The notes under the pieces are model-generated. The model searched no databases, was not told the origin of the DNA, and saw only the letters and a list, made by a program, of their open reading frames with translations. The position numbers were made by a program, and so were the translations under genes. Below, piece after piece: positions 1 through 20,000 of a stretch of DNA of 20,000 nucleotides. Origin of the DNA: Mesotaenium endlicherianum (taxonomy: Eukaryota). The stretch's first letter is position 1. Every line of letters begins with the position of its first letter. The stretch spans positions 434,045 to 454,044 of the forward strand of contig WELA01003469.1 in assembly GCA_009602735.1 (NCBI GenBank), written 5' to 3'.

Positions 1-3000
1 CCTGAAGTCTCCGGGCTTCTAGTAGAGAGACTTGGGGCTGGTCCAAGATGGGGGTTGGCAATATGGAAGCGCTTCAACTTCCGTTGAACTTTGTCAAGGT
101 AGTGCGCCGCCACCCAACTATTCTCCGAATCTGGATATCCTTTCCACTTGATCAAGTATTGCTGCTGTCTCCTGAAATTTCTCATAGCCATTATGTCTTC
201 CACTTCGTACTCCAAATGATCATCCACTATTGTTGGGGCTGGTGGGGTTGTCACACGTCCTGGGAACTTGTTGTCGGGTTGCACATATGGCTTGAAGAGG
301 GAAGCGTGGAATACGGGGTCGATGTGCATAGTCTGGGGAAGTTCTAGCTTGAAAGCAACGGGGTTGACTTGCTGGATAATCTTGAAGGGTCCCAAATACT
401 TGGGAGAGAACTTGCTGCCGGCAGGCCTGTTGTTCAGGGAAATGTTCTTGGATGATAGTAACACGTTGTCACCCACTCTGTACGTAATTTCTCTTCTGGA
501 TCTGTTCGCCACTCTTGCTTGAGCATCTTGCGCGTGTTGTAGAGCTTTCTTCGCTGCTGTAAGGGCTGCTTCTAATGTCTCCATAAAATCTGTGGCTGCA
601 GGTACTTCATCATGGCCAGCCGTGAAGCTCAGTGGCGTGGTCGGATGGAAGCCATAGTTGAGGAAGAATGGGGACTCTTGGGTAGAGGCCTGCGTAGTGT
701 TGTTGTAGGCAAACTCGAGGGGGGTCAAGTACATGTCCCAGTCTTGCTCGAGGGTAGACACGTAGGCCTTTAGAGAGGTCTTTAGGGTACGATTCATACG
801 CTCGGTTTGCCCATCTGATTGTGGGTGGTAGGCAGTAGACATATCCAGCGATGTACCCAAGTTCTTGAAGAGATTTTTCCAGAAATGGCTTGTGAATCTT
901 GGATCTCTATCTGACACAATTCTTGATGGTAGTCCATGGAGTCGGAAGATGTTGTCAAAGATGAGTCTTGCAAGTTGTGGTGCTGTAGCCTTAGTCGTCG
1001 TGGGAATAAAATGAGCCATCTTGGTAAGTCTGTCCACCGCCGTGAGTATTGCATTATGGCCTCGAGGTGTCACGGGCAAGTCCACGATAAGGTCCATTGA
1101 GATGTCCGTCCATTGTCTTTCGGGGATTGGTAGTGGTTGGAGGAGTCCTCCCGCCTTTTGCGATGATGGCTTGATTCTTTGGCATGTGTCACAGCTCCTG
1201 CAGTACTCCTTGACTTGCTTAGACATGCCTGGCCAACAATAAGTCCTAGCTAGAACGCCCGTGGTCCTTAGGATTCCAAAGTGTCCTCCAAGAGGGTTGT
1301 CGTGTGCTTCTCGTAGAAGCAAGAGCCGGAGGTCTAAGTCATTAGGAACACATCTCTGGCCCGTATCTTGCCTCACCCAATAATTGCCTTCTTGCTTCTT
1401 GCATGGGTCCAAGGCTGCTTCTCCGTTCTTGTAGTAAGGGTCTCTTTCATAGGCGGCTGAAAATCGAGCTTCCAGATCTGTCTTCAGGGATACCATCACT
1501 GCATTTAATTGCAGTCTTGAGAGGGGGTCAGCCGGGTTTGTCTTGCCGGGCTGGTACTGAATCGTGATGTTGTATTGTTGCAAGTATCCGCTCCATCTTG
1601 CTTGTCTCCTTGAGAGATACGGCTGCGTTTGGAGGTGCTTTAACGCCTCGTGGTCCGTGGTGACCAGTACTTTGCGTCCTTCAACGTAGCAGCGCCAAAC
1701 CTTCAAGGCATGTACAATCGCCAATGCCTCTCGCTCCGTGGTTGTATAATTTTGCTCGGCTGGATTTAGCTTCCTTGACTCGTAGGCGATGGGCTGCAGT
1801 CCCTTGCCTTGGTCTTGAAGCAGGATTGCTCCTATTGCATAGGAAGATGCATCGGTGATGACGTGGAAGGGCCAATCTGGGTTTGGACTTGGGAGTGTGA
1901 GCACCGGGGATGTGGTCAATCTTCGCTTTAACTCTTGAAATGCCTCTTCCTCTTTCTCGGTCCATGTATATAGCCTGTCCTTCTTGAGTAGATCTGTCAG
2001 GGGGGCTGCTATGTGCGAGAAGCCTTGGATGAATTTTCTGTACCAATTGGCAAATCCCAAGAATGACTGGAGTTCTTTCTTGGTCGTGGGGGTTGGCCAT
2101 TCCTCCACCACCGTGGTCTTCTTGGGGTCCATCTTGATGCCATCAGCAGTCACGTGGAGACCTAGGAACTCCACTTCTTGTTTGGCAAACTCGCACTTTG
2201 ACTCCTTCGCAAATAGCTTGTTTTGCTTCAATACTTCAAGGACTTCTTTCAAGTGTCTCGCATGCTCTTCAAGGGTCTTGCTGTAGATAAGGATGTCATC
2301 GATGAATACCACCACAAATCTGTCCAACATGGGCTGAAATATGGTGTTCATCATAGTCATGAAAGTTGCTGGCGCGTTGGTGAGTCCAAATGGCAGGACC
2401 ATGAACTCAAAATGTCCATATCTTGTCCTGAATGCCGTCTTCTCTATGTCCGGTTCTGCGATGCGAATCTGGTGGTAGCCGCTCCGTAAGTCAATCTTCG
2501 TGAAGTACTTGGCTCCAACCAGCCGGTCCATGAGCTCATCCATGCGCGGCAGCGGGTATCGATTCTTGATGGTGATCTTGTTGAGGGCGCGATAGTCCAC
2601 ACACATCCTCAAGGTACCATCTTTCTTCTTGACAAATAGCACCGGGGCTCCAAATGGCGACTTGCTAGGTCGAATGAAGCCATGCTCCAGTAGCTCCTTG
2701 ATTTGCTTCTTGACTTCGTCTAGCTCCGTGTATGACATTTTGAACGTAGGCCGAGAGATGGGCTTGCTTCCGGGCTCCAACTCTATCTTGTGGTCTACGA
2801 ATCTTTTGGGGGGTAGGCCCTTGGGCAATTCCGGGGAGAACACTTCTTTGTAGTCCTCTAAGACTTCTTGTATCTCCTTGGGAACGGGGCTGCCTTCTTG
2901 ACTCTCGATGTCTTTCTTGATGTCTTTTGGCGTGATCAAGGCCAAAAGAAGCTCGTGTCCCTTCCTCACAAGTCTCTTGAGTTGGAGGGCGGACAATAGT

Positions 3001-3530
3001 ATCTCGTGTGCCGGCTTCTGGATGTCTTGGGTCTGGATATTCTGGATTGCGCGCAAAATACAGATTCTTGAAGTGATGTCATTCTTGATCTTGATAGTAC
3101 CGGTCCTCCAATCAACTTGGGGGTTGTGCTTGGTCAACCAAGGCGTCCCTAGGATGACGTCGTACTTGCCCAATTGCATGGGGGAGAACACTACTCTATC
3201 CTTGAAGGACTTGATAGAGAGTGCCAAGGGGTACGTCTTCTTGGAAGGGGTAGTATAGGAGAATCCATCGGGCATCATAATCTCCTCGTCGTGGTCAAGA
3301 GTTCGCATAGTAATACCGTGCTTGGTGGCAAAATCTGCAGCAATGAAGTTGCCTTGAGCTCCGCTATCCACCAAGATGTGGACCTTCTCTCCTCCAAGGT
3401 AACCTCTCAAACTCATTGGGGCTGGAACGTCGTCTTCAACGGGGGTCTCCACCTCACTTGGCGTGTTGCCTTCTCGTGAAGTGGGTCTTGGGGTGGTAGG
3501 CTCCTGGCCTACCGGCGCTGTCCGTTTTTT
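1..3530 (-). CDS. pol: Pol polyprotein (protease, RT, RNase H, integrase, chromodomain), reached by -1 frameshift; 3'-partial
   Basis: Manual translation: [10 protein letters not shown] (DSG 3360-3368), [10 protein letters not shown] (~2580-2610), [12 protein letters not shown] (FIDD 2295-2306), VITDAS (~1845-1862), HHCC zinc motif (~1180-1305), DRD, QTER, GPF, and chromodomain [23 protein letters not shown] (~110-212). The frame at the slip site, DSG, FIDD and base 1 is the same. The ORF track lists nothing in this frame, consistent with no stop before the window edge. Confidence 0.95.
3495..3530 (-). promoter_or_regulatory. Predicted -1 programmed ribosomal frameshift signal (A_AAA_AAC plus stem-loop)
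   Basis: Gag codons TCA AAA AAC give A AAA AAC (3530-3524); the -1 frame is pol; hairpin GGTAGGC-CAGGA-GCCTACC at 3513-3495. Confidence 0.8.
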
Positions 3531-4789
3531 GACAACTTTTTGGGGCATGAAAGTGCACGATGGCCCTTTTCCTTGCAATAAAAGCATAGTCCAGCCGTCA
3601 TGAGAGCTTCTTTTTCAGCCGGGGAGAGTCTTGCTTTCACTCCTTGCTGGTTTCTTGCATCATAAGTGTCATTGGAGGGTCTTCCACTCTTCCGGGCAGC
3701 CGCGGGGTCCCTTTTAATAACTCCGATTTCCATGGGTGTGGGTCCAGATTCGGATGTGGAAGGGGCTGCGTACACCCGCGTCGTCGGTACCCGTGAAGAT
3801 GAAGGCACGGAGTGCTTGAAATCCAAGGTATCCACCTTTTGGGCCACTTCAATGATCTTTGAGAAGTCCGTCAAGTCGCGTAACTCCACTTCCTTTGCCA
3901 CCTTGGGTTTGAGGCCAAAGATGTAGCGGTCAATCTTCTCCTCGAGAGACATGTTGGGGATCTCAAGAGTGAGGGCGTGAAATCTGGATGTATACTCTTG
4001 AACGGACGTCGTTTGCTTGAGATGGTGGAGCTTTCCTCGGGCAATCTTCTCCGCATTGATGGGCATGAATTGCTTCTTGAGGGCCTCACGAAAATCTGCC
4101 CATCTTGCATATGATGGTGGGGGCTCTTGGCCGAGCATGGGGTGCGCCATAGCTTGATATATAGCCGCTTGATAGTTACGCCACCATGATGTTGCTGCTC
4201 CTCTAAGTAAGGTAACGGCAAAGGGAACGTAGTCCTCCTCGGGTACTTCAAGGAATGCGAGGTACGTCTCCACTTGGTAGAGCCATAAATTCAGGTTGGC
4301 ACCTTTCCCGGGGTTGAAAGTGTCGGGTTTGCCGGGCTTGATGAGTTTCCTTGCTCTCGTTGGCTCTTGTGGAGGCGCTTGAGCCGGGGCTGGATTTTGA
4401 GCATTGCTCGCAATAGGGGCAACCATGGCAGCCATAGCTTCTCTTGACGCTTGCACGGTTGCTTCATAGGTGGCCAAGCCCACTTGGTTGTGGACGGTCA
4501 TTAGGAAGGCTGCCCACTCATTTGCGGGAACTCCTTGTGGTGGGGTCAACTTTGCTATAGCGGCTGCCACGGGATTTGACGGTGCTCCTCCTTGTGGTGC
4601 TTCTTGTTGTTGGAGATTTCCTTGAGTAGGCTCTCCCATCGACGCTGGAGGAGGGTGTGCTCCTCCTTGTGGTGCTTCTTGTTGTTGCAGATTTTCTTGA
4701 GTGGGCTCTCCCATCGGCGCTGGAGGAGGGTGTCTTGGAGAGGAAGGGCTTCCTTCGAAAGCTTGCTGTTGGTCTTGAGGATCGGCCAT
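3509..4789 (-). CDS. gag: Gag (retrotransposon capsid domain plus CCHC zinc knuckle), 426 aa
   Basis: [59 protein letters not shown] lies just downstream of the PBS. Confidence 0.96.
4583..4732 (-). repeat. 75-bp in-frame tandem duplication in gag N-terminus
   Basis: [25 protein letters not shown] / [25 protein letters not shown]. Confidence 0.95.
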
Positions 4790-4809
4790 CTTCTTGTGCT
4801 ACCAAAGTG

Positions 4810-5329: not shown

Positions 5330-6037
5330 GAAAACATGCCTTCGTCAAATGGGCGAAGAATGCAGGCCGGATAGATATCAGCAGGCTGAAAGCCAAGCAA
5401 CCTCCAGCGCGCCCTAAGAAAGGGAGATCAGTAGACTACTCCATGTCTACCAGAGAGCAAAACGACTTAGTTGACGAGACTCCTACTCTTTCAGAGGAGG
5501 AGGATGAGGGGGATGAGGAAGAAGAACAAGGTAGAGGCGAAGCATCAGGAGCTGGTACTCAGGAGACCCAGGGGCAAGCAGGGGCACTTCCTAAGGAACC
5601 AAGATCAGGTATATGGAACGTGATCCCCGTCATGGAGGCAACTGGACCCCGCACTCGCTCCCCCATTCCACCTGCCCATGCAAGGGGAAGAAGCTAATCT
5701 GATTGTACTGGGCAGCAGACACAGGCAGAAATCCCCAGAGGACAGGGGTTTCAGAAGAGGGATACGCGGGGTGGCCAGAGGTATGCCGGCCTTCCCCTTT
5801 GCTCATGGACATGTACCTCTTGCCAATGTATTTCAGCATCCTATTGGAATGCCTGTCTATGTGGGGATCAACATCCAAGTGGGTGAAGAGCAGGCTACCA
5901 TCCTTCGTTCTCCTCGAGGTCCAACTTTAGAACAAACGGGGTTCTTTAGAAGGCCAGCGGACAGACCTAGACGGCTGTCTAGATCTAGGTCCAGATCTCC
6001 GTCTCCAGATCCTGAAGCCCCAGGAACAACCCCCTAA
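5330..6037 (+). pseudogene. Disrupted 3' ORF of family B, unknown protein (acidic tract, C-terminal RS-rich tail); frame switch near 5650-5700
   Basis: KHAFVKWAKNAG (one frame) and GMPVYVGINIQV..PTLEQTGFFRRPAD (next frame) are both conserved in the second copy, with mostly synonymous differences. Confidence 0.6.
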
Positions 6038-6132: not shown

Positions 6133-6150
6133 AAGTTAAGTTGGAGGGAT
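6133..6150 (+). promoter_or_regulatory. Polypurine tract of family B
   Basis: AAGTTAAGTTGGAGGGAT directly before the LTR's TGT; TGGAGGGAT also abuts the second LTR copy (12813-12821, minus). Confidence 0.75.
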
Positions 6151-6868
6151 TGTAATGAATCAGTATGTTAGTAGATGTAATATTCATTTAAATATAATAT
6201 TATTTAAGTTCAGCCTACTGAACTCTAGTTGATTATCCGTCTGCTGGACTTTATATTTAATATCGGTTTAATGACTCAGCCGGAAGTAGCAGGCTAAAGT
6301 CCACTTAAGTCAGCTTGCTGACACATTCTTTAACAGCCAGCTGACTTCCGTACTCGGTAGCGGCAAACTGCCTCGATATGCATCTAAGTATGATATGTTA
6401 GATGAATGGCCAGATGACATCCCTATGATGGATGGCGATTCGGGATGATGGGAGATGGTGGTGGATTTGGTTAACCGAGGTCCTACCAACGTGGTTAACT
6501 CCCGGGTAGGCGATGCCATCGCACTAGCCGTTGAACAGTAACTCATTCCATGTACATATGCTAGGCATTGCTCTCGAGTTTGGCACTCGGAAATGAGGCC
6601 AACTCTCTTGTACAGCTTACTGAGAGAGATCTGAATCCAAGGCGAGAAGCCATTGATACGCACTGTCTTCTAACCTTGCTTATGTATGAGTTTACTGATT
6701 GCATTATCGATGCTAGTTTACTCGCATTTCAATTACGAGTATTGTTCCCTGCTAGTGTGTTGTCCTTTGCCGTTTAACCAATTAACGGAAAATACCATAA
6801 AGATTACTTGCTGATATAAAGATCTTTATTAATTGTTAATTGCCTATTTGGTAAGTCGATTCATTTCA
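6151..6868 (+). repeat. 3' LTR of family B (718 bp)
   Basis: Termini TGTAATGAATC...GATTCATTTCA (10/11 inverted match); homology to 12060-12812 stops at the CA end. Confidence 0.92.
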
Positions 6869-9869: not shown

Positions 9870-9920
<51 letters not shown>

Positions 9921-10400
9921 CTCTCCCTCAGCCTCTCGCTTTCCCTCTTCCTCATTCTCCTTCTCCCTCTCTTTCTTATCTTTCTCGCACACGCTCTCTT
10001 TCTTGTGTTAGCTCAACGTTAGCTGCCCTACCCATCTCATATTCTTTATTTTGTCTGTTGCCAGCCCCTCCTTTGATTTTGTTCTATTAACAGACAATTT
10101 ACATTATGTATTCAATTTTGGAGGGAGAATGAGGCAAATGAGAGGTGGTAGAGGCNTCTCATTATGTTTATTCTGCCTGCTGCCAGCTCCTCCTCTCTCG
10201 CGCTCTCCCTCACCCTGTCCCTCACCCTCTTCCTCTCTCTCTCTCTCGCTCTCTCTCCTCTCTCTCCCTCAGCCTCTCGCTTTCCCTCTTCCTCATTCTC
10301 CTTCTCCCTCTCTTTCTTATCTTTCTCGCACACGCTCTCTTTCTTGTGTTAGCTCAACGTTAGCTGCCCTACCCATCTCATATTCTTTATTTTGTCTGTT
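7890..10400. repeat. CT-rich low-complexity / (CT)n microsatellite tract with a degenerate larger unit; assembly gaps 7908-7960 and 8551-8920
   Basis: Pyrimidine-rich plus strand, (CT)n runs, recurring TGC(C/T)TGTTGCCA(A/G)CCCC and CACGCT(G/A)TT motifs. Confidence 0.9.
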
Positions 10401-10496
10401 GCCAGCCCCTCCTTTGATTTTGTTCTATTAACAGACAATTTACATTATGTATTCAATTTTGGAGGGAGAATGAGGCAAATGAGAGGTGGTAGAGGC
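9913..10496 (+). repeat. ~245-bp identical direct duplication (offset 341) around the single N at 10156; probable unmerged contig overlap
   Basis: 9913-10155 matches 10254-10496; the first copy ends exactly at the N. Confidence 0.85.
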
Positions 10497-10825: not shown

Positions 10826-11537
10826 ATTTCTGGTAGAAAATTTCCGAGAGAAAGTAGATTTACCTACTTTTGGCTACGAGACGCTGCCAGACAAAGTGCG
10901 GATTTTTTTCGTATGTTTTTTGACCTCTAAAGAAGTATGAAACGACATGTCGGCCTTACTTAACGGCCTCAAAACGGCCGTTTTCCCCCTTGCCCATTAT
11001 CAGGGTGCTCTCAAGCGACCAATTCGGCACAATATCCTGTTGAAATCATGTTGCAAATAAATATAGTGTAGCCTTTCTCTGCTCTGTTGTGCCTAACAGC
11101 GTCGGACTCGTAGCTTCTCAGCACGTGTGCCTTCAACCTCGTCGACGTGTTGGTGCGTTGCTGCACGTGGGAAAATTGACCGAGTTAATGGTCCCCTGCA
11201 CGTATGTCGGTGACGGCAACCAGTTCCTCACTCTACCTTACCAACACTTAGTGGAAATTTTCAAAAACTTATCTCATCCTCAGCTTCCCTTACACCCCTC
11301 CCTTTCAGCTGAGGCGTCCCAGCCTTTCCGTTGAAAGCCTCTATCTCTTGGCCTTGTGGCTAGGGTTTTTAGGAAGGCAGTCAGGACATTCTCATTGTCC
11401 TGCCATAATCTCCTCTTTACCAATGCAAAAGGTGTGCCAACAAGCACTACACATATCACAAGTTACCATTGCTTCTTAATCATCCCGCACTTTGCAACTG
11501 GCACAAGGTGTGGCTGGCACCAATTCCTCGGGCACAG

Positions 11538-12059
11538 TGTTGTGCGTTACGAGGTCGAGTGCGCACCATAGGCATAAGCAACATATCATAGGCAAGCAGG
11601 CTTTGCTGCAATGGAGTCTATATTACATGTGGCATTATAGCCAAAACGGAAGTCAAATCGAAAATATTCTAATTAAGGAATGTGTACTCTCCAGAGTGAG
11701 CACCTCAAGACTGTAATCTGGTAGGAAAACAACTAATGAAGTATGGCCCAAAAGATCACTGGAAGCACATCATGATCTTCAGAGTAGTCCTATGGCAAGG
11801 GCTTAAGCTGTGACTTTGCTCACCACTTGTGAAGTTCTTCAAGTGACTGGAAGCCTGGAGGGCTTGCTCTTCACAAGAGAGTAACTAAGTGGTCCTGAAA
11901 ACACAAGAGATAAAAGTGTAAGCTTTACTGATAATCTCTGTTACTTAGACCTGGCATAATGGACTTCTAAACGATGTCTCTTCTAGGGACACCTCTAGTA
12001 CTTATACTCCTGGAAATCCGGCGGGGTATGCGGCGGATCCAGTGCATGTAGTCACTCTA
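11538..12059. repeat. Putative LTR segment of a third family (C), interrupted by family B
   Basis: Begins TGT exactly where similarity to 13476-13612 begins; appears to resume after the CTCTA TSD at 12823. Confidence 0.45.
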
Positions 12060-12821
12060 TGAAATGAATCGACTTACCAAATAAGCGATTAACAATTAAT
12101 AAAGATCTTTATATCAGCAAGTAATCTTTATGGTATTTTCCGTTTAACTGGTTTAACGGCAAAGGACGACACACTAGCAGTGAATAATACTCGTCAGTCA
12201 AATGAGAGTAAACTAGCATCAATAATGCAAATCAGTAAACTCATACATAAGCAAGGTTAGAAGACAGTGCGTATCAATGGCTTCTCGCCTTGGATTCAGA
12301 TCTCTCTCAGTAAGCTGTACAAGAGAGTTGGCCTCGTGTCCGAATGCCGAACTCGAGAGCAATGCCTAGCATATGTACATGGAATGAGTTTACTGTTCAA
12401 CGGTCAGTGCGATGGCACCGCCTACCCGGGAGTTAACCACGTTGGTAGGACCTCGGTTAACCAAATCCACCGCCATCTCCCATCATCCCGAATAGCCATC
12501 CATCATAGGGATGTCATCTGGCTATTCATCTAGCATACCGAACTTAGATGCATATCAGGGTAGTTCGCTGCTACCGAGTACGGAAGTCAGCTTGCTGTCA
12601 AAGAATGTGTCAGCAAGCTGACTTATATGGACTTTGAGCCTGCTGCTTTCGACTGAGTCAGCAAACTGATAATTATGTAAAGTCCAGCAAATTGACTATT
12701 AACTAAATTAAAGTCCAGCTGACTGACTATTAACTAAAGTTCAGCAGGCTGAACTTAATTAACTATTCTATTTAAATGAATATTATATCCACTAATATAC
12801 TGATTCATTACAATCCCTCCA
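12060..12821 (-). mobile_element. Second family B copy: 3' LTR (12060-12812) plus PPT; remainder collapsed at N 12822
   Basis: Reverse-complement homologue of 6142-6868; CTCTA at both 12055-12059 and 12823-12827. Confidence 0.9.
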
Positions 12822-12977
12822 NCTCTAGGAGGCTCTCCTATGTCCACTAATGTGTACAAGGCATGTACCAGCACTCCTATAGGCTAAGCATCACTCAAAC
12901 CAATCAAAGCAAGGTGCGTAGGATATGCTACGTGTCCCTCATTGGCCGAGCTTACCTTGGGTGATTCTACCTAGATN

Positions 12978-13114
12978 TACAGCCCTCTAGGTTTGTCAGC
13001 TGGCCTTCTAAAGAACCCTGTTTGCTCTAAAGTTGGCCCTCGGGGAGAATGGAGGATGGTGGCCTGCTCTTCAACCACTTGGGTGTTGATTCCCACATAG
13101 ACAGGCATTCCAGT
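12978..13114 (-). repeat. Family B internal fragment between single Ns
   Basis: Inverted homologue of ~5844-5978; encodes GMPVYVGINTQVVEEQATILHSPRGPTLEQTGFFRRPAD. Confidence 0.9.
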
Positions 13115-13475
13115 NCTTATGTAGGCTAAGGGGCTCGCGGATTTGTGCGCACAAAGCTTGGGGTCACGAAGAGCCATTAATGTCACCTTTGGGGACATTG
13201 AGTCACAAATTGGGCCTTGGGAAAGTTTCGCTAGGGACCGGTAGGTGACGCGGACTAGATCGCACCTATCTCGCTTGATACTTGACCAAATGACGCGAAA
13301 TTGGTGCCATTCGGAAGATGCTTCAACACGCTACACGTTGGTGACTTGGAAATCTAGAAAAGGTCAACATAAAAATGCGTAAAGTCAATGCAAAGTCGGC
13401 CTTCCTAGGTTGATGTTCCGCACATGTGGAGCTTGGTTTTTATACGACAACCTCGACTTAATAAATCATGACAGC

Positions 13476-13612
13476 TGTCGTGCGTTACGAGGTCGAGTGC
13501 GCACCATAGGCATAAGCAACACATCATAGGCAAGCAGGCTTTGTTGCAATGAATTCTATAATACATGTGGCGTTATAGCCAAAAAGGGAGTCAAGTCGAA
13601 AATGTTTTAATT
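13476..13612 (+). repeat. Diverged direct repeat of 11538-11674 (putative family C LTR terminus)
   Basis: Collinear 137-bp match starting TGT(T/C)GTGCGTTACGAGGTCGAGTGCGCACCATAGGC. Confidence 0.88.
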
Positions 13613-13634: not shown

Positions 13635-13728
13635 GCCTGCGTTCTTTGTCCATTTGACAAAGGCATGCTTTCCCTTAGAGAAGTACTCTCTTCCCCTCCT
13701 CCTATGTTCCTTGGTCTCTGCATTCATA
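13635..13728 (-). repeat. Family B internal fragment spanning the empty site of the family A insertion
   Basis: Reads ...CTCTAAGGGAAAGCATGCCTTTGTCAAATGG; matches GAAAACATGCCTTCGTCAAATGG from 5330. Confidence 0.85.
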
Positions 13729-13729
13729 N

Positions 13730-13870
13730 ATCTTCGCAGAACCAGTCTCCAGCTGGCACGCGGGCCACCGGCGGGTCGAGGCAGCCGATGTGGAAGCCAA
13801 GGTTGCAGCTGTCGCAGAGCAGCATCTTGGCCTCCTGGCCAGTGCTGTGACAGATCTGGCACGCCCAGTC
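13730..13870 (-). other. PHD finger (C4HC3) at the integrase C-terminus
   Basis: DWACQICHSTGQEAKMLLCDSCNLGFHIGCLDPPVARVPAGDWFCED; the last Cys would fall at the N. Confidence 0.92.
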
Positions 13871-13899
13871 CTTGGGCGGCCGCGCGTCGCTGGGACGGA

Positions 13900-16690
13900 C
13901 CTGCAAGTCAAGGTTAGGAAGGTGGCACGGCCCACAATTCTTCGTGTGGTCCTTGTGAAGACGGCCATCTGCGCCTTCCAGCTCCAGGACTCCTGATGCC
14001 AAGGCACGCTTGACGCGCAGGATGACCGGCGAGCTGCTGGTGTCGAGGGTGTTCTTCGTNCGAGGGTGTTTTTCGTCTGGCGTCGCAGGTACACGAAGTC
14101 TCCTGCGAAAAACTGCAACACCTGCGGATGATAGGCTCCTCCACAAGTCATGGCGTACCTCAGTGTGTCGCGATGCTGTGCGATGCTGAGGCTATCCATG
14201 GCCATGGGCATCAGGCGCCGAAAGAGCTGAGCACGCTGCCCGATAAGAGCACTCCATATCTCGGGACTGTCTAAGTCCAAGACGTTCTCGGCCACAGTCC
14301 TGGCTGCTGCTGGCAGGATGGGCTGTCGGCCGTAGAGAAGGAAGTAGGGAGAGTGCGAGGCCAAGGAGGCCTGCTTATTGAACCTGTACCCCATCGCTAG
14401 CCAAGGGAGGGCGTCGTCCCAGTGGGTACGGTCGTGGGCAAGGCAGTACTTCCGCAACCCTAGCTTGACGGTCTGCACCATGCGCTCGGCGAGGCCGTCA
14501 GCCTGAGGATGATCACGGGAGGTGGTGCGGTGGTCGATCATAGAGCGCTCCAGCAGCTTCTGAAAGCTGCCCTGGAACTCCTTGCCCTAGTCGGTCAGCA
14601 CCTCAACGCAGCCGCCAAAACGGCTAAGGACCTGATCGAGGAAGGCCTGAGCGATCCCCTCACTGGCCTTGCTGGGCAAGGGCACGAGCTCGATCCACTT
14701 GGACATGTGCTCAATCATCACCAAGACGTAGAGGTTGCCCTGGCGAGACTTGGGCAGCTCTCCAGCCAAGTCAAGCAACCACCTGTAGAACAGCCCCTGA
14801 ATAGGAAGGGGGCTGAGGGCAACGGTGCGCGCTGTGAAGCTCGAGCACACACGGTCGCAGAGAGTGCAGCTGCTGACGACAGCGGCGACGACCTTAGTCA
14901 TGCCGTGCCACCAGTACTTGGCTTGAAGAAGACTGAGGGTGCGCTTGACACCGAAGTGCCCGAAGGACTCGTGCACTTGGCGCCACAGCTGACTGCGTAT
15001 GGCAGGCTCAGGGACCACCAGGACGGAGCCGTCCGCCATCGCGCGCCGCACGCGCCCCTCCATGAAAATGAAGTCGCGGCTGCGCCTGAGGATGCGGTCG
15101 CGCTCGCGTGCGCTGACATCGGGTGCCAACTCCTTGGCCGTGACAAACTGCAGCACTGGGGCGTCGTCCCACACGTCTTCAGGACCGCGCTGCCAGCTGT
15201 CCTGATCCTCTGCCGCTGCCAGGGCCAATCGCCGAGTGGTGACGGTCACCATGTCCAGGCTAGTGAGCCCTGCGGGCCGCACATCGCCGTCCACGGTGAA
15301 GGCCAGGAAGGCCGCCACGTGCCAGGCCACCGGTTCATCCTCATCGTGGCGGGCCACAGTGAGATCCCTCAAGGAGGGCAGCGGGTTACGGCTGAGACCG
15401 TCAGCGTCCAGGTTGGTCAAGCCTGGACGGTGGTGCACGTCGAAGGTGTACTCTTGCAAGATAAGCGCCCACCGTGCGTACTTGCCGGTCAAGCGCTCCG
15501 ACGTCATGAGCCACTTAAGTGGCTGATGGTCGGTGACCAGGCGGAAGTGCGTGCCGTAGAGATAGTGCCTGAAGTGCATGATTGCCCAGATCGCTGCCAG
15601 GCACTCCCCCTCGTAGGAGCCGTAGTTGCCTACCGCGCGGTTGTTGCTGCGGCTGGCGTAGGCCACCACATGCTCAAAGCCGTCATGCTCCTGCACTAGC
15701 ACAGCGCCCAGCCCTGCCTGCGACCAGTCGGTGTGGAGGATAAAGGGCTTCGCGTAGTCAGGACGCCGAAGCACCGGAGCGCTCACCAGCAGCTCCTTGA
15801 GCTTATCGAATGCCGCCTGCTGCTCTGGTCCCCACACGTAGGCAACGCCCTTGCGGAGCAAGTCGTTGAGCGGCTTGGCTAGCTCGCTGAACCCTGGCAC
15901 AAAGCGGCGGTAGTAGTTGGCGATGCCAAGGAAGGCCCGCAGCTGCGAGAGATCTGTAGGAGGTGGGATGCCTGTGATGGCCGAGATCTTCGCTAGCTGG
16001 GGTGCCAAGCCGCTGGAGGAGAGCAGGTGGCCAAGGTACTCCACCTCGCGGGTCCCAAAAGTGCACTTGCCTGGATGGCACTTGAGCCCAGCGGCCTCCA
16101 AGCGGTCCAGGACGCAGTGATGTGCGCCACGTGCTCCTCAAACGTCTGACTGAAGACAAGCACGTCATTGATGTAGCATCGGGCAAAGGACAGCCCGGCC
16201 GGCTCCTTATCCATCACCCTCTGAAAGGTAGCTGGCGCGTTCTTCAACCCAAACGGCATCACCACCCACTCGTAGAGCCGCTGTGCTCCCCAGAACGCCG
16301 TCTTATGTGGGTCCTCCTCGGCGATGGGAATCTGGTTGAAGCCCTGACGCAGATCCAGCACTGAGAACCAAGTGCACGTGCCAATGTTGTCAAAGATCTC
16401 GTCAAGCGTCGGCATAGGATATCTGTCCAGCTCGATGACCTCGTTCAGCCTACGATAGTCACCGCACATCCTGTCTGCGCGCTGATCAAGCCATCCTTGA
16501 AGTGGCTGTAGCGATAACGCTTCAGGAAAACGGGCTCCTGCGACGTAAGAGTAATCCGCATGGGGTCCCCCCTGTAGCGCCCGAGATCGTGCATGCCGCT
16601 GGCAAAGCTGGTGCTGCGCCTCCCGTCCAGCAGTGCCGTCAACTGTGCAGCCTGCGCCTTGGTGAGTGTCCCCCCCAGCTTCCATGTCGG
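13900..16690 (-). pseudogene. pol: RT - RNase H - integrase of the DNMT-Gypsy element, disrupted
   Basis: [38 protein letters not shown] (for YIDD), LRAFLGIANYYRRF, HTDWS, YEGECLA, TDHQPL, HESFGHFG..CTLC, LDLAG, LTD*G, HPQADGLAER. Lesions: deletion ~16475, 1-nt loss ~16113, stop 14587-14589, N junction 14060. Confidence 0.95.
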
Positions 16691-16815
16691 TGGAGCTGGT
16701 GGCGTCGCCTGGCCTGCAGTTGGAGTCTCCTGTCTTGCCGCTGGGGTAGACTCTGGTGCTGCAGGTGTCACCTGCCCTGCAGCGGTTGGCGCTTGGCCTG
16801 CCGCGGGTACCTGCA
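16685..16815 (-). repeat. Degenerate ~21-bp (7-aa) coding repeat, (T/V)PAAGQx, in the DNMT-RT linker
   Basis: [42 protein letters not shown]. Confidence 0.75.
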
Positions 16816-17149
16816 CCGTGGCAGCTGCGGCCAGCTGCCTGGCACCGTCTGCCTGCGAGCGAGGAAAAAGAAAGGGTGACCGGGACATCCTGGGTGACCG
16901 AGACTCCCTAAGTCGCTGTGAGGACTCCTCTCTCCGCCGTCTCCCCCCCAGCGAACCAGAGTCCTCCCTGCGCGGCGGTGGGGAGGGGGGGCGGGCGCGC
17001 ACCTGCGGTGCAGGCCCTGCGCGCTAAGGATGCCACGTCGTGCCGGGCGGGGCCTGATTGTCATCGTCGGTGGAGTCATCGTCCATATCATCGGCAGGCC
17101 TCGGCAGCTCGGGATGCCGGGCTGCGGCGTAGAGAGGCGCCAAGGCCTG

Positions 17150-18100
17150 CGTCTGCAGCAAAATCCACGTGAGGACGTTGGCGTCGATCACCTGCCCCAA
17201 GAGGCGAATGCGGTTCACCTCAGTGGGACCGTCCACCTGTGTGAGATGCGGCGGGAAGCCCATGGCACGCTCCATCTCCGCAGAGCGCGGCCTGTCAAAC
17301 ATGCCAGTCTCCAGGTCAATGACCATCCCGCGCTGATCTCCGACGAAGGCGTCGCTGTCGTAGCGGCTGACAAAAGTCGGCAGCGCGCGAGTGACGTCAT
17401 GCTGGACCTCACACTGCGCCATGGAGGGATGTGGTAGTGCAGTCACGCACTGGGCCAGACGAGGGGCGTCGAGGATGGAGTCAACGGTTCGTGGGTTACG
17501 TTGATGAGAGGCGGCCATTGCCTCGAGATTACCTGGCATCGCCAGGTTTGTGAAGTAGGCGCGGACGCGGTGCGTGAAGGAACCAATCTGGGCAGCGTCG
17601 ATGACGGCCTCGCAGCCGACGTAGCTGCTGCAAAGAGCAAAGTCGGAGCTAACATCGGGTCGATAATCGTGGCGCGCGGCCACGTTCTCCAGGACCCACG
17701 CGCGTGTGTGCGGCGGCTGGCGATCCAAAAAAATTTGAGGACGCGGAGCAAGTGCCAAAAGAGGGCCGTGCGGGGATCGCTGAGCGCCCTGCCACGCCCG
17801 GCTCTGGAGAAACCCTGGCACTCCCAACCGGCGATGACGAGGTCATTTGTCTCAAGGCGGGTGACATGCTCGACGGTGATGTCGCGGATGTCCATGGGCC
17901 AGTCTGTCTGAGCGCGGCGGAATGCGTGCGCGGGAAGGAGGTCTAGGAACCGCTCGTGGCACAACGCCATCTGTTAACGGGCCACCTGCTGGGCCTTAGG
18001 ATCGGGATCAACGTAGACGTAGCGGCGCACCGGGATGCCGGCCTGTAAGGTCGCGAGCAACCCGGTGGCGATGCCGGCGAAGAGCTCGATGAGGACAATG
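17150..18100 (-). pseudogene. C5 cytosine DNA methyltransferase domain (DNMT3-like motifs), disrupted by one stop (17974-17976) and one frameshift (A7 run 17727-17733)
   Basis: Motif I LIELFAGIATG, II YVYVD, III DIRDI, IV DLVIAGWECQGFS (Cys 17818-17820), VI VLENV (17681-17689), VIII DAAQIGSFTHRVRAYFTNL, IX EMERAMGFPPHLT, X RIRLLGQVID, all in canonical order. Confidence 0.93.
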
Positions 18101-18879
18101 CCGCCAGGCCGCTCGTCTAGAGCGTCTGCGCAGATAGGAGTCGGAAGTGGGCGACACCCCATTGCAGGGGTGCCGGGCTGAGCGGGCAGCGGGAAGGTAC
18201 GCTCGGCGCTGTGCTGATGTGGCGCCATGCGGAGGGCGGCCACAGCACGGTCTGCGTAGTCACGCGTAAGGCTAGGGATGCAGTTAGTGAGCGGCTGCGG
18301 ACGCTCCTCCCGTGCGTGGTCCTGATAGGTGCGCCACCGCAGGCGCGCATCCTGCAGGGCTGGAGAGACAGCGCGGGACTGACGTCGGTCCTAGGCCACG
18401 CACAGCTGCTGCCACCTGTCGCGCTGGGCGCGGTCAGTCTGGTGCGAGGCCGCGTGGGCCAGATGGTCGAGAACGGGATGCTGTGTTAAGTAGGGGTGCA
18501 GGTCGAAGTAGGCCCGTTGGCGTGCGCGCATGTCTGCAGAGGGGACTGTGCAGACGGAGCGCTCGGAGCTGTCGACCTCCTGCGGGGACCAAACTAACCG
18601 GCGAGGGGCCAGTTGGACTCGCGGCCAAGGCTGCCCTCGTGGGACGGGCGCGTCTCGGGGTTGCCGGAGACTAGGCATGAGCCGTGTGCATGCGGCGGCC
18701 GTAGATGGGTGGCGACTGGGCGGCCTGCTGTCGATGCGGGCCACCTTGGGAGGAGGTGACCCGGAGGGACCGTCGCCAGCGATGTGGCTGCGAGGGACGC
18801 TGGCGCGCGGAGCTGTAGGGGCCAGCATCACATAATGCGCCTCGGAATAAGACTGAGCGTCGTCGCCAACTGAGAGGGG

Positions 18880-19100
18880 CCGGAAGGGCGGAGTGCGGCG
18901 TCGGTCTCGAGTGTCGTCGTATGGCGGCGTGTCCCCGCGGGCCCGCGTGTCGTCGTAAGGAGGCGTGCGCTCCCTGTCGTCGTAGGGCGGCGTGATGGAG
19001 CGGGCTCGCGTCTCGCGGAGGGGAGTCACCTCTCACGTCTCGCAAAGGGGTGTCAGCGATCGGGAGCGGCTCGTCTCGCGGAGAGGAGTGGTCTCTCGAG
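18880..19100 (-). repeat. Coding repeats TPLRET x3 and TPPYDD x3 upstream of the DNMT
   Basis: TTPLRETSRSRSLTPLCET*EVTPLRETRARSITPPYDDRERTPPYDDTRARGDTPPYDDTRDRRRTPPF. Confidence 0.8.
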
Positions 19101-20000
19101 CGGGCCCGATGGTCGGCCTAGTGCAATGTGCGTAGGTCAGATGGGCGCAGATAGACGGGGTCGTGCGGGGTGGCTCGCGGACGCTGAGCCTGGGCGCTGG
19201 CTGCTGTATGGAGTGTGTGCCAGCGCTAGAGGAGGCCGTGGCAGCCTGGCTTGTCGCAAACAAATGCACGATGCGGCGACACACGTGGCTCGTCGAGCAG
19301 TCGTGTGACACTGGACGGCTGGGTCTAGCGGCGTCGGTGCGAGCCTTGCTGGGCCAGTCGTGTGTCATGGGCTGGCTGGGTGCGCTGAAGCCGGGCGGAC
19401 CAGTAGGTGCGCGGTGCCTGCGTGCCGTAGGCGCAGCTGGCGGGGGCTCCGCGCTGAGTACCTCGACGGATGCCTCTGGCAGTCGCTCCCACTGTGTCTC
19501 CTCCTCACTCTTGAGGGACTGGTCGTCGGATCTGCCAGGAGAAGCTGCCTGCCGCATGACCTCGTCCTCGGATGCCGTGGTGCGAGGCCAGGTCTCACCG
19601 GTCTGATGCGAGGCGTCGTGAGGGGGCGGCTGAGAGTCCATACTGTACTGAATGGCCACGCCAACAGGCACGTCGTGGCAAACGGGGACGTCGGTCCTCG
19701 CGGACGGCTCGCCGCGAGAGGCCAAGACCCCCTGATGAGCTGTAGGCGCTGCGGCCGCACCGCGAGCAAGGGCGGCGGCAGCGATGGCTGTGCTGGCCGT
19801 GGCGAGGGCCTCAGTGCCATCGTTTGCCATCTGCCGCATCATCGCGCTGTGGGCAGTGCAGATGCGGATCTGCTCCCTGGCCTGGGCTGCCAGGACATCC
19901 GCCTGCTGCTGCGGCGTGAGGTGGAGCTCGGCACTAGGTAGGTCCGGCTCCTCGTCCTGTGGCTCGAGCAGGTCCACCCCCACAGAGATCTCCTCGTCCT

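What the first reader, a model, noticed from the sequence alone, without database searches (positions are those of the whole stretch)
13730..14100. PHD finger in place of a chromodomain: predicted H3K4me0 reader paired with a DNMT3-like writer
Seen: C4HC3 PHD at the integrase C-terminus, where chromoviruses such as family A here carry a chromodomain. It has an Asp three residues before Cys1 (DWAC), an LLCD strand, and GFH rather than WFH/WYH. Known: these features characterise PHDs that bind unmethylated H3K4 (AIRE PHD1, BHC80, CHD4 type) rather than the aromatic-cage H3K4me3 readers, and animal DNMT3 uses a PHD-like ADD domain to read H3K4me0. Inference: the element may have convergently assembled an H3K4me0-reader plus de novo methylase module, steering integration and/or methylation away from active promoters.
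Basis: partly seen in the sequence, partly recalled or inferred. Interest (0 to 1): 0.85.

Follow-up and report, generated by a model that had tools for sequence, protein, structure and literature searches.

The report
PHD-tipped integrase of methylase-carrying retrotransposon
A decayed copy of a green-plant jumping gene carries a DNA-methylating enzyme and, at the tip of its integrase, a PHD finger that likely grips unmodified histone H3 tails to steer insertion; the pairing is the rule in a large, partly described family, and the two parts likely act separately.

Summary
The PHD finger is real (Pfam 48 bits, cut-off 24); seven of eight zinc ligands are visible, and the eighth codon falls on N13729. 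The N at 14060 is an assembly overlap: a contig from another run bridges it. DNMT3-like domain plus PHD is the rule in this Gypsy clade: 29 of 32 gap-free metagenome loci, and 50 of 56 proteins found without PHD bait. The element belongs to the published Gypsy-DNMT3 kind (KnitGypsy-Dnmt3), and PHD fingers on algal Gypsy elements are published too. All 178 relatives lack the cage Trp and most keep the H3 A1/R2 pocket, so binding to unmodified H3 is likely. An ADD-like reader-writer unit is unlikely: the domains lie about 1000 residues apart, each occurs without the other, and one subclade has a leaky-type stop between them. I did not find in print the chlorophyte order RH-DNMT-INT-PHD or that stop. 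The scan noted this kind three times before in other genomes.

The parts
13730..13870 (-). PHD finger (Cys1 at 13859-13861, seventh ligand at 13736-13738); eighth-ligand codon lost at N13729
   Evidence: Pfam PF00628 E 1.2e-12; PDB hits; AlphaFold pLDDT 83-93 over residues 61-109; Foldseek UHRF1, DPF, BAZ2, ATXR5 at about 0.5-1.5 A over 43-48 columns
13916..14110 (-). Integrase C-terminal beta module (GPY/F, SH3-like by position; name inferred), split by N14060
   Evidence: Three strands at pLDDT about 90; precedes the PHD in 178 parsed relatives
14044..14076 (.). Scaffold overlap: 16-nt duplication around N14060, an assembly artefact
   Evidence: 15 of 16 letters alike; bridged by an X8 contig with 17 letters left out
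13729..13729 (.). N at which the element breaks off; its 3' terminal repeats are not in the window
   Evidence: Loose ends of X1, X8 and X12 contigs at 13728 and 13731
14330..15010 (-). DDE integrase zinc finger and core; premature stop at 14587-14589
   Evidence: PF17921 E 9e-16, PF00665; most other copies differ at that stop
15427..15747 (-). RNase H
   Evidence: PF17917 E 3e-36; profile hit
16020..16480 (-). Reverse transcriptase, frameshifted near 16113, with an apparent deletion near 16490
   Evidence: PF00078 E 2e-19; frames; indel table
17150..18100 (-). DNMT3-like C5 cytosine methyltransferase, broken (stop at 17974-17976, frameshift near 17734); a further stop follows at 17024-17026
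   Evidence: PF00145 E 3.3e-7; C-terminal part hits DNMT3A/B/C best; the intact relative P0008 hits DNMT3C/3A/3B at E 4e-9 to 2e-8, ahead of HhaI at 9e-6
3..4798 (-). Unrelated neighbour, family A: chromovirus-type gag and pol ending in a chromodomain (comparison only)
   Evidence: Pfam; lies among the outgroups in both trees

Best explanation
The stretch is the PHD finger at the C-terminus of the integrase of a decayed Ty3/Gypsy element that also encodes a DNMT3-like methyltransferase; the finger likely tethers the integration complex to nucleosomes through the unmodified H3 N-terminus, while the methyltransferase likely acts as a separate product on the element's own cDNA. Shown: the domain identities, their linkage in one family, the clade-wide pairing, absence of the cage Trp, and retention of residues matching the KDM5A PHD1 pocket for H3 A1 and R2. 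Inferred: H3 binding; a preference for unmethylated K4 that may be modest (UHRF1- or KDM5-like rather than AIRE-like); bias of insertions away from H3K4me3 promoters; protease release of DNMT from integrase-PHD; cDNA as the DNMT substrate (the published proposal for such elements). The two domains would co-operate by travelling in one particle, not as one ADD-like catalytic unit.
For: Linkage: bridging contig, and X8 contigs tiling PHD to DNMT at depth 9-21; 29 of 32 loci with both flanks carry both domains with no N between; 69 of 75 proteins with DNMT and a whole integrase tail carry a PHD, 50 of 56 without the 19 found by PHD bait. Reader type, n=178: no Trp two before His (Gly 162); Asp after Cys3 164; hydrophobic residue before Cys3 nearly always; C-terminal Pro 158, Gly 140, Trp 176. 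The window has matches to KDM5A E305, L308-L310, D312, V330, P331, G333 and W335 (numbering). Nearest folds are UHRF1, DPF, BAZ2A/B and ATXR5, many solved with H3. Separability: 7 sister elements carry a PHD without DNMT3, 4 of them with Dam; 5 elements keep a DNMT with largely intact motifs but no PHD; an in-frame stop followed by CARYY(A) lies between DNMT and RT in 17 of 55 loci, against 8 of 392 (CARYYA 0 of 392) background stops. Chlamydomonas Gypsy-7a has a PHD and inserts between genes 2.6-fold more often than chance.
Against: No binding or insertion-site data. The best sequence hits are KMT2D/KMT2C fingers, and other fingers of those proteins bind H4, not H3. Only 31 of 123 human PHD constructs bound H3, 10 preferring K4me0. 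The conserved Asp and Trp also have structural roles, so their conservation is not proof of binding. 68 of 178 relatives have no acidic residue in the four positions before Cys1, and the second R2 Asp is present in only 16. In the chlorophyte-type order the DNMT lies directly before the integrase and the PHD was never missing (37 of 37 without PHD bait), which favours closer coupling there. KnitGypsy DNMT showed no activity in yeast, a result its authors call inconclusive. Selection against genic insertions could explain the Gypsy-7a bias.
Confidence: 0.55

Rival explanations
1. One reading: the PHD is a strict H3K4me0 reader that guides the element's DNMT3 to chromatin, a convergent copy of the animal ADD-DNMT3 module, methylating the new insertion or its flanks.
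For: Long-term co-retention; DNMT catalytic Cys, EN and HRxR motifs kept in 55-56 of 58; in the RH-DNMT-INT-PHD order a DNMT-integrase-PHD product is possible and the PHD is always present.
Against: In the window's order RT, RNase H and integrase (about 1000 residues) lie between the two; PHD without DNMT3 and DNMT3 without PHD both occur; a leaky-type stop separates them in one subclade; the K4 acidic site is poorly conserved.
Confidence: 0.2
2. The PHD is a general chromatin or protein tether: it binds the H3 A1-R2 end with little regard to K4 methylation, or binds a non-histone partner, and raises integration efficiency without steering it.
For: UHRF1 PHD, among the nearest folds, loses only about 3-fold on K4me3 and is also solved with non-histone peptides; the A1/R2 pocket is conserved while the K4 side varies.
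Against: 134 of 178 keep an acidic residue before Cys1 or at the KDM5A E305 position, and the window has that Glu; the reviewed cage-less readers are blocked by K4 methylation.
Confidence: 0.2
3. The pairing is a scaffolding chimera of two families, or the PHD is a decayed passenger.
For: N14060 and N13729 are real contig joins; no long read of this copy was available; the copy has several stops and frameshifts.
Against: Bridging contig; pairing in gap-free loci and single proteins; PHD dN/dS 0.42, like the adjoining module's 0.41 (decayed copies, non-independent pairs).
Confidence: 0.04

Closest known systems
KnitGypsy-Dnmt3 / streptophyte Gypsy-DNMT3 (de Mendoza et al. 2018, PMC5890265)
   Same: DNMT3-like domain inside a Gypsy Pol; a Klebsormidium nitens protein (P0081) lies in the same clade and ends in a PHD; relatives show the DIRS-like split repeat layout that the paper reports.
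   Different: The word PHD is absent from the paper's text and from the 3 supplementary files searched; its Fig. 4c, which I could not see, may draw it. Reported for K. nitens; here the clade reaches Marchantia, Closterium and chlorophytes, with a second domain order and a leaky-type stop in one subclade.
PHD-bearing algal Gypsy elements: Gypsy-7a_cRei and REM1 of Chlamydomonas
   Same: PHD finger in a Gypsy polyprotein, proposed to influence insertion; Gypsy-7a is biased to intergenic DNA.
   Different: The Gypsy-7a legend lists the PHD before the integrase and no methyltransferase, like my sister group III (membership not tested). Here the PHD follows the integrase. The REM1 paper was not held.
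Chromoviruses and EpiLTRs (bioRxiv 10.64898/2026.05.21.726589)
   Same: Histone reader at the integrase C-terminus; EpiLTRs already combine a reader with a cytosine methyltransferase.
   Different: No Chromo hit in 17 clade and sister proteins scanned or in 80 loci (weak three-sequence profile).
Unmodified-H3 PHD readers: KDM5A/B PHD1, UHRF1, BAZ2A/B, ATXR5, DPF PHD2, AIRE, BHC80, CHD4
   Same: No cage Trp; hydrophobic strand and Asp around Cys3; Pro-x-Gly-x-Trp pocket.
   Different: No acidic residue at the CHD4/AIRE-type position (3 of 178) and rarely at the KDM5 D292 position (29 of 178); binding untested.
Animal DNMT3 ADD domain
   Same: Would exclude H3K4-methylated chromatin; occurs with a DNMT3 catalytic domain.
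   Different: ADD sits next to the catalytic domain in one protein (recalled). This is a canonical single PHD at the far end of the integrase, and ADD was not among the top sequence or fold hits shown.

Membership tests
Gypsy-DNMT3 (KnitGypsy-Dnmt3 kind) | Gypsy Pol order RT-RNase H-integrase | tested here: met
   Pfam
Gypsy-DNMT3 (KnitGypsy-Dnmt3 kind) | Unrearranged DNMT3-like domain within Pol | tested here: met
   DNMT3A/B/C are the best PDB hits for the window's C-terminal part and for relative P0008; the middle fragment alone hits HhaI and DNMT2 weakly first; no tree with host DNMT families was built
Gypsy-DNMT3 (KnitGypsy-Dnmt3 kind) | Same lineage as the Klebsormidium elements | tested here: met
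   Window and K. nitens P0081 lie in one clade, 99/97; P0081 starts after the DNMT position, so its identity with KnitGypsy-Dnmt3 is inferred
Gypsy-DNMT3 (KnitGypsy-Dnmt3 kind) | DIRS-like split terminal repeats A-coding-B-A-B | tested here: inconclusive
   Both ends lie outside the window; the full pattern is seen in relatives L009, L027, L041, L058, L066
PHD finger | C4HC3 ligands, family score and fold | tested here: met
   48.1 bits; fold; eighth ligand lost at N13729
H3K4me3 cage readers (ING/BPTF type) | Trp two residues before the zinc-binding His | tested here: not met
   Gly in the window; Trp in 0 of 178
AIRE/BHC80/CHD4-type H3K4me0 readers | Acidic residue two before Cys1 | tested here: not met
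   Trp in the window; acidic in 3 of 178; CHD4 register, AIRE and BHC80 register recalled
KDM5/UHRF1/BAZ2-type unmodified-H3 readers | A1 and R2 pocket residues | tested here: met
   Matches to L309, L310, D312, P331, G333, W335 and E305; D315 and D292 not matched
KDM5/UHRF1/BAZ2-type unmodified-H3 readers | Measured binding to H3 and loss on K4 methylation | not testable with these tools
Chromovirus | Chromodomain at the integrase C-terminus and nesting among chromoviruses | tested here: not met
   No Chromo hit; the clade lies apart from family A and three chromodomain-bearing rows; few reference rows
ADD-DNMT3 module | Reader adjacent to and inseparable from the catalytic domain | tested here: not met
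   About 1000 residues apart in this order; each occurs alone; stop between them in a subclade

The most novel reading that the evidence does not exclude
A green-lineage-wide Gypsy clade uses an integrase-borne H3K4me0 reader to land off active promoters and a packaged DNMT3 to methylate the new copy; in chlorophytes the DNMT has moved next to the integrase to form one DNMT-integrase-PHD protein, and in one subclade stop-codon readthrough makes the DNMT at Gag-like levels. This would be a mobile, convergent version of the animal rule 'no H3K4 methylation, then DNA methylation'.
Probability: 0.2. Interest if true: 0.78.

Novelty: new member of a known kind. Interest (0 to 1): 0.44.

Why it matters
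Why retrotransposons keep a cytosine methyltransferase is an open question in the paper that described them. This clade offers natural contrasts to test it: DNMT before RT or next to the integrase, with or without PHD, fused or behind a leaky-type stop, and a sister group with PHD but no DNMT3. If the finger reads unmodified H3, it would be a second histone-guided targeting device in green-lineage Gypsy elements beside the chromodomain. The window's copy itself is a decayed, ordinary member.

Tried and rejected
No whole genome is held for this window, so copies in the same assembly could not be compared. A word-index search with the PHD tail found nothing (182 candidates); the exhaustive search found 6513 at E<=0.001. 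No long-read run was listed and no RNA holder was listed. The REM1 paper was not held. dN/dS on metagenome loci was of limited use: copies are decayed, no locus had one open frame from DNMT to PHD, and no DNMT pair passed the filter. The DNMT tree did not resolve whether the two domain orders share one capture (2 changes, none forced). My in-frame stop check on the window linker used a wrong frame and is disregarded; the ORF list is used instead. No complex prediction was run, as no H3 chain was available. Rejected: chimera at N14060; the Asp three before Cys1 as a diagnostic residue; an H3K4me3 cage reader; descent from a chromovirus by domain swap (not shown). A look-up by sequence among earlier findings was blank.

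Full report
What is in the window. Two LTR-type retroelements lie on the minus strand. Family A (3-4798) has gag and a 1204-codon pol ending in SH3_Tf2-1 and Chromo. Family B (13730 to beyond 20000) reads DNMT, RT, RNase H, integrase, C-terminal module, PHD, with stops at 14587-9, 17024-6 and 17974-6 and frameshifts near 16113 and 17734. Contigs of runs X1 and X8 differ from the window at four of these five places (the stop at 17974 was not among the 40 rows shown of 225), so the copy is decayed. The host is of the green lineage: named relatives are algae and Marchantia, and one contig joins the element to plant-type telomere repeats. I did not identify it further.

The observation. The finger scores 48.1 bits against Pfam PHD and folds like UHRF1, DPF, BAZ2 and ATXR5 fingers (model mean pLDDT 81.5, pTM 0.47, 30-sequence alignment). 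Seven ligands are visible; the eighth codon begins at N13729, where other copies run on into different DNA. N14060 lies in a 16-nt overlap, and one X8 contig bridges it with 17 letters left out. Summed contig depth in X1 is 32-40 thousand over the DNMT core and 41-66 thousand over the PHD end; this is not a copy number, but it is of one order. No single record spans DNMT to PHD for this family.

The pairing is clade-wide. A search with RT-RNase H-integrase listed 120 of 473 hits. With profiles built from them: 21 have DNMT before RT (13 with PHD), 27 have DNMT between RNase H and integrase (26 with PHD, the other truncated; named members Haematococcus, Pleodorina, Chromochloris), 41 begin just before RT (39 with PHD), 7 have the PHD before the integrase and no DNMT3, and 24 are outgroups. 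Over all 295 proteins from three searches, 69 of 75 with a DNMT and a whole integrase tail have a PHD; without the 19 found by PHD bait, 50 of 56. Of 80 metagenome loci, 48 of 53 with enough upstream DNA have the DNMT, 44 of 47 with enough downstream DNA have the PHD, and 29 of 32 with both flanks have both; many of these loci are near-copies from a few data sets. In RNase H plus integrase trees the window falls in one clade with both DNMT orders (99 in FastTree, 128 rows; 99/97 in IQ-TREE, 45 chosen rows). The chlorophyte order is one subclade (100/99). The PHD-before-integrase group is a weakly supported sister (86/65), and chromodomain-bearing rows lie outside.

What the finger likely reads. 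In 178 parsed relatives (15 more did not parse and were dropped) the cage Trp is never present, the Asp after Cys3 is kept in 164, and the Pro, Gly and Trp of the A1 pocket in 158, 140 and 176. These match the residues that hold H3 A1 and R2 in KDM5A PHD1 and UHRF1. The window also has the Glu matching KDM5A E305, a K4 contact (Glu or Asp in 76 of 178). The position two before, acidic in CHD4, is Trp here and acidic in 3 of 178; the KDM5A D292 position is Lys here. K4 contacts in several readers are main-chain, so a K4me0 preference remains plausible, but UHRF1 shows that such a finger can lose only 3-fold on K4me3. Base rates are sobering: 31 of 123 human PHD constructs bound H3, 10 preferring K4me0. 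My estimate: binds the H3 N-terminus 0.7; clearly prefers K4me0 0.5.

Reader and writer are probably not one unit. The DNMT is DNMT3-like with catalytic motifs kept in 55-56 of 58 relatives. In the window's order about 1000 residues separate it from the PHD, and polyprotein processing (established for LTR elements; sites not tested) would part them. Five proteins keep the DNMT without a PHD, and a sixth has a degenerate finger. Seven have the PHD without DNMT3, four of them with Dam. In a neighbouring subclade, 17 of 55 examined loci have an in-frame stop 90-98 codons before RT followed by CARYY (5 by full CARYYA), against 8 and 0 of 392 decay stops. These 17 come from four or five subfamilies 79-94% identical in RNase H. 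CARYYA is a known readthrough signal. Thirteen proteins from the DNMT-baited search end after protease and DNMT, and several end at the matching place. This predicts DNMT in excess over integrase-PHD, fitting a packaged enzyme acting on cDNA, the published proposal. The window's family shows no such signal: its stop at 17024-6 is not followed by the motif and is not shared by X1 contigs. Against my reading, the chlorophyte order puts the DNMT right before the integrase and never lacked the PHD (37 of 37 without PHD bait).

Comparison with print. KnitGypsy-Dnmt3 is described with a DNMT3 in Pol and DIRS-like repeats; five loci here show that repeat layout in full. PHD fingers in retrotransposons are called widespread, and Gypsy-7a has one. 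Reader plus methylase elements are described with chromodomains. Eight full-text searches showed no paper describing PHD with DNMT3 in this clade, the chlorophyte order or the stop; the library lacks most subscription journals, I could not see figures, and bioRxiv supplements were closed. What I saw: PMC5890265, passages, the Discussion and a search of 3 supplementary files; 10.64898/2026.05.21.726589, passages and section 8; passages only of PMC6673714, 10.1101/2021.11.30.470311, PMC6979384, PMC3241642, 10.1101/715474, PMC3214078, PMC2774666, 10.1101/2022.06.16.496473, PMC4132726, PMC10124903 and PMC12344493; the REM1 paper, nothing (cited by others). The names GPY/F and ADD, the AIRE/BHC80 register and polyprotein processing are recalled. 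Three earlier notes of this scan report the same kind in other genomes; they agree but are not evidence.

Verdict. Real feature, real linkage, a new member of a known kind. The targeting role is likely, the strict H3K4me0 and ADD-like claims are unproven. The clade's internal variety is the more interesting part. Interest 0.44.

Noticed in passing
L002, L003, L004, L006, L007 and 12 more loci, 90-98 codons before RT; P0269-P0278: Conserved in-frame stop followed by CARYY(A) between Gag-protease-DNMT and RT-RNase H-integrase-PHD: a candidate TMV-type readthrough that would put the DNMT on the Gag side.
   Followed up: partly
P0042, P0056, P0085 and others: Chlorophyte subclade with the order RT-RNase H-DNMT-integrase-PHD, often with 150-450 unannotated residues after the PHD.
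   Followed up: partly
L027 2324-2616, 11356-11978; L041; L058; L066; L009: Split direct repeats A-coding-B-A-B on elements with a DDE integrase; how such ends are replicated and integrated is unexplained.
   Followed up: partly
P0089, P0090, P0092, P0097; P0295: Sister elements with Dam adenine methylase and a PHD between RNase H and integrase; P0295 has a divergent DNMT then PHD before the integrase.
   Followed up: partly
window 13916-13950 (-): A Cys/His-rich motif ends the integrase module just before the PHD (Pro-Cys and a later Pro nearly invariant in alignment A1); it might be an extra zinc site like the one before the UHRF1 PHD.
   Followed up: no
window 13730-20000: Of 32 listed transitions private to this copy, 17 are in CG, 10 in CHG and 5 in CHH context, against 29/24/47% background (a subset of the best-supported rows), as expected from host methylation. 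CpG o/e is 1.1 in the DNMT, 0.82 in RT-integrase and 0.63 in family A.
   Followed up: partly
window 13750-14560, runs X23 and X24: 17 and 22 poly(A) RNA reads at about 90% identity or less cover the integrase end and PHD, from related subfamilies; none over the DNMT in the 6-12% of each run read. The pile at 14884-14918 is a 35-nt partial match.
   Followed up: partly
window 6139-6868 vs 12060-12824; 5845-5990 vs 12969-13112; 11534-11674 vs 13471-13612: Further repeated segments (88-91%, the first two inverted), probably pieces of other elements.
   Followed up: no
window 9884-10155 vs 10227-10496: 99% duplication beside N10156, probably another scaffolding overlap within a CT-rich microsatellite tract.
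   Followed up: no
window 3-4798 (-): Family A has uninterrupted gag and pol frames with a chromodomain, apparently a young chromovirus-type copy.
   Followed up: partly
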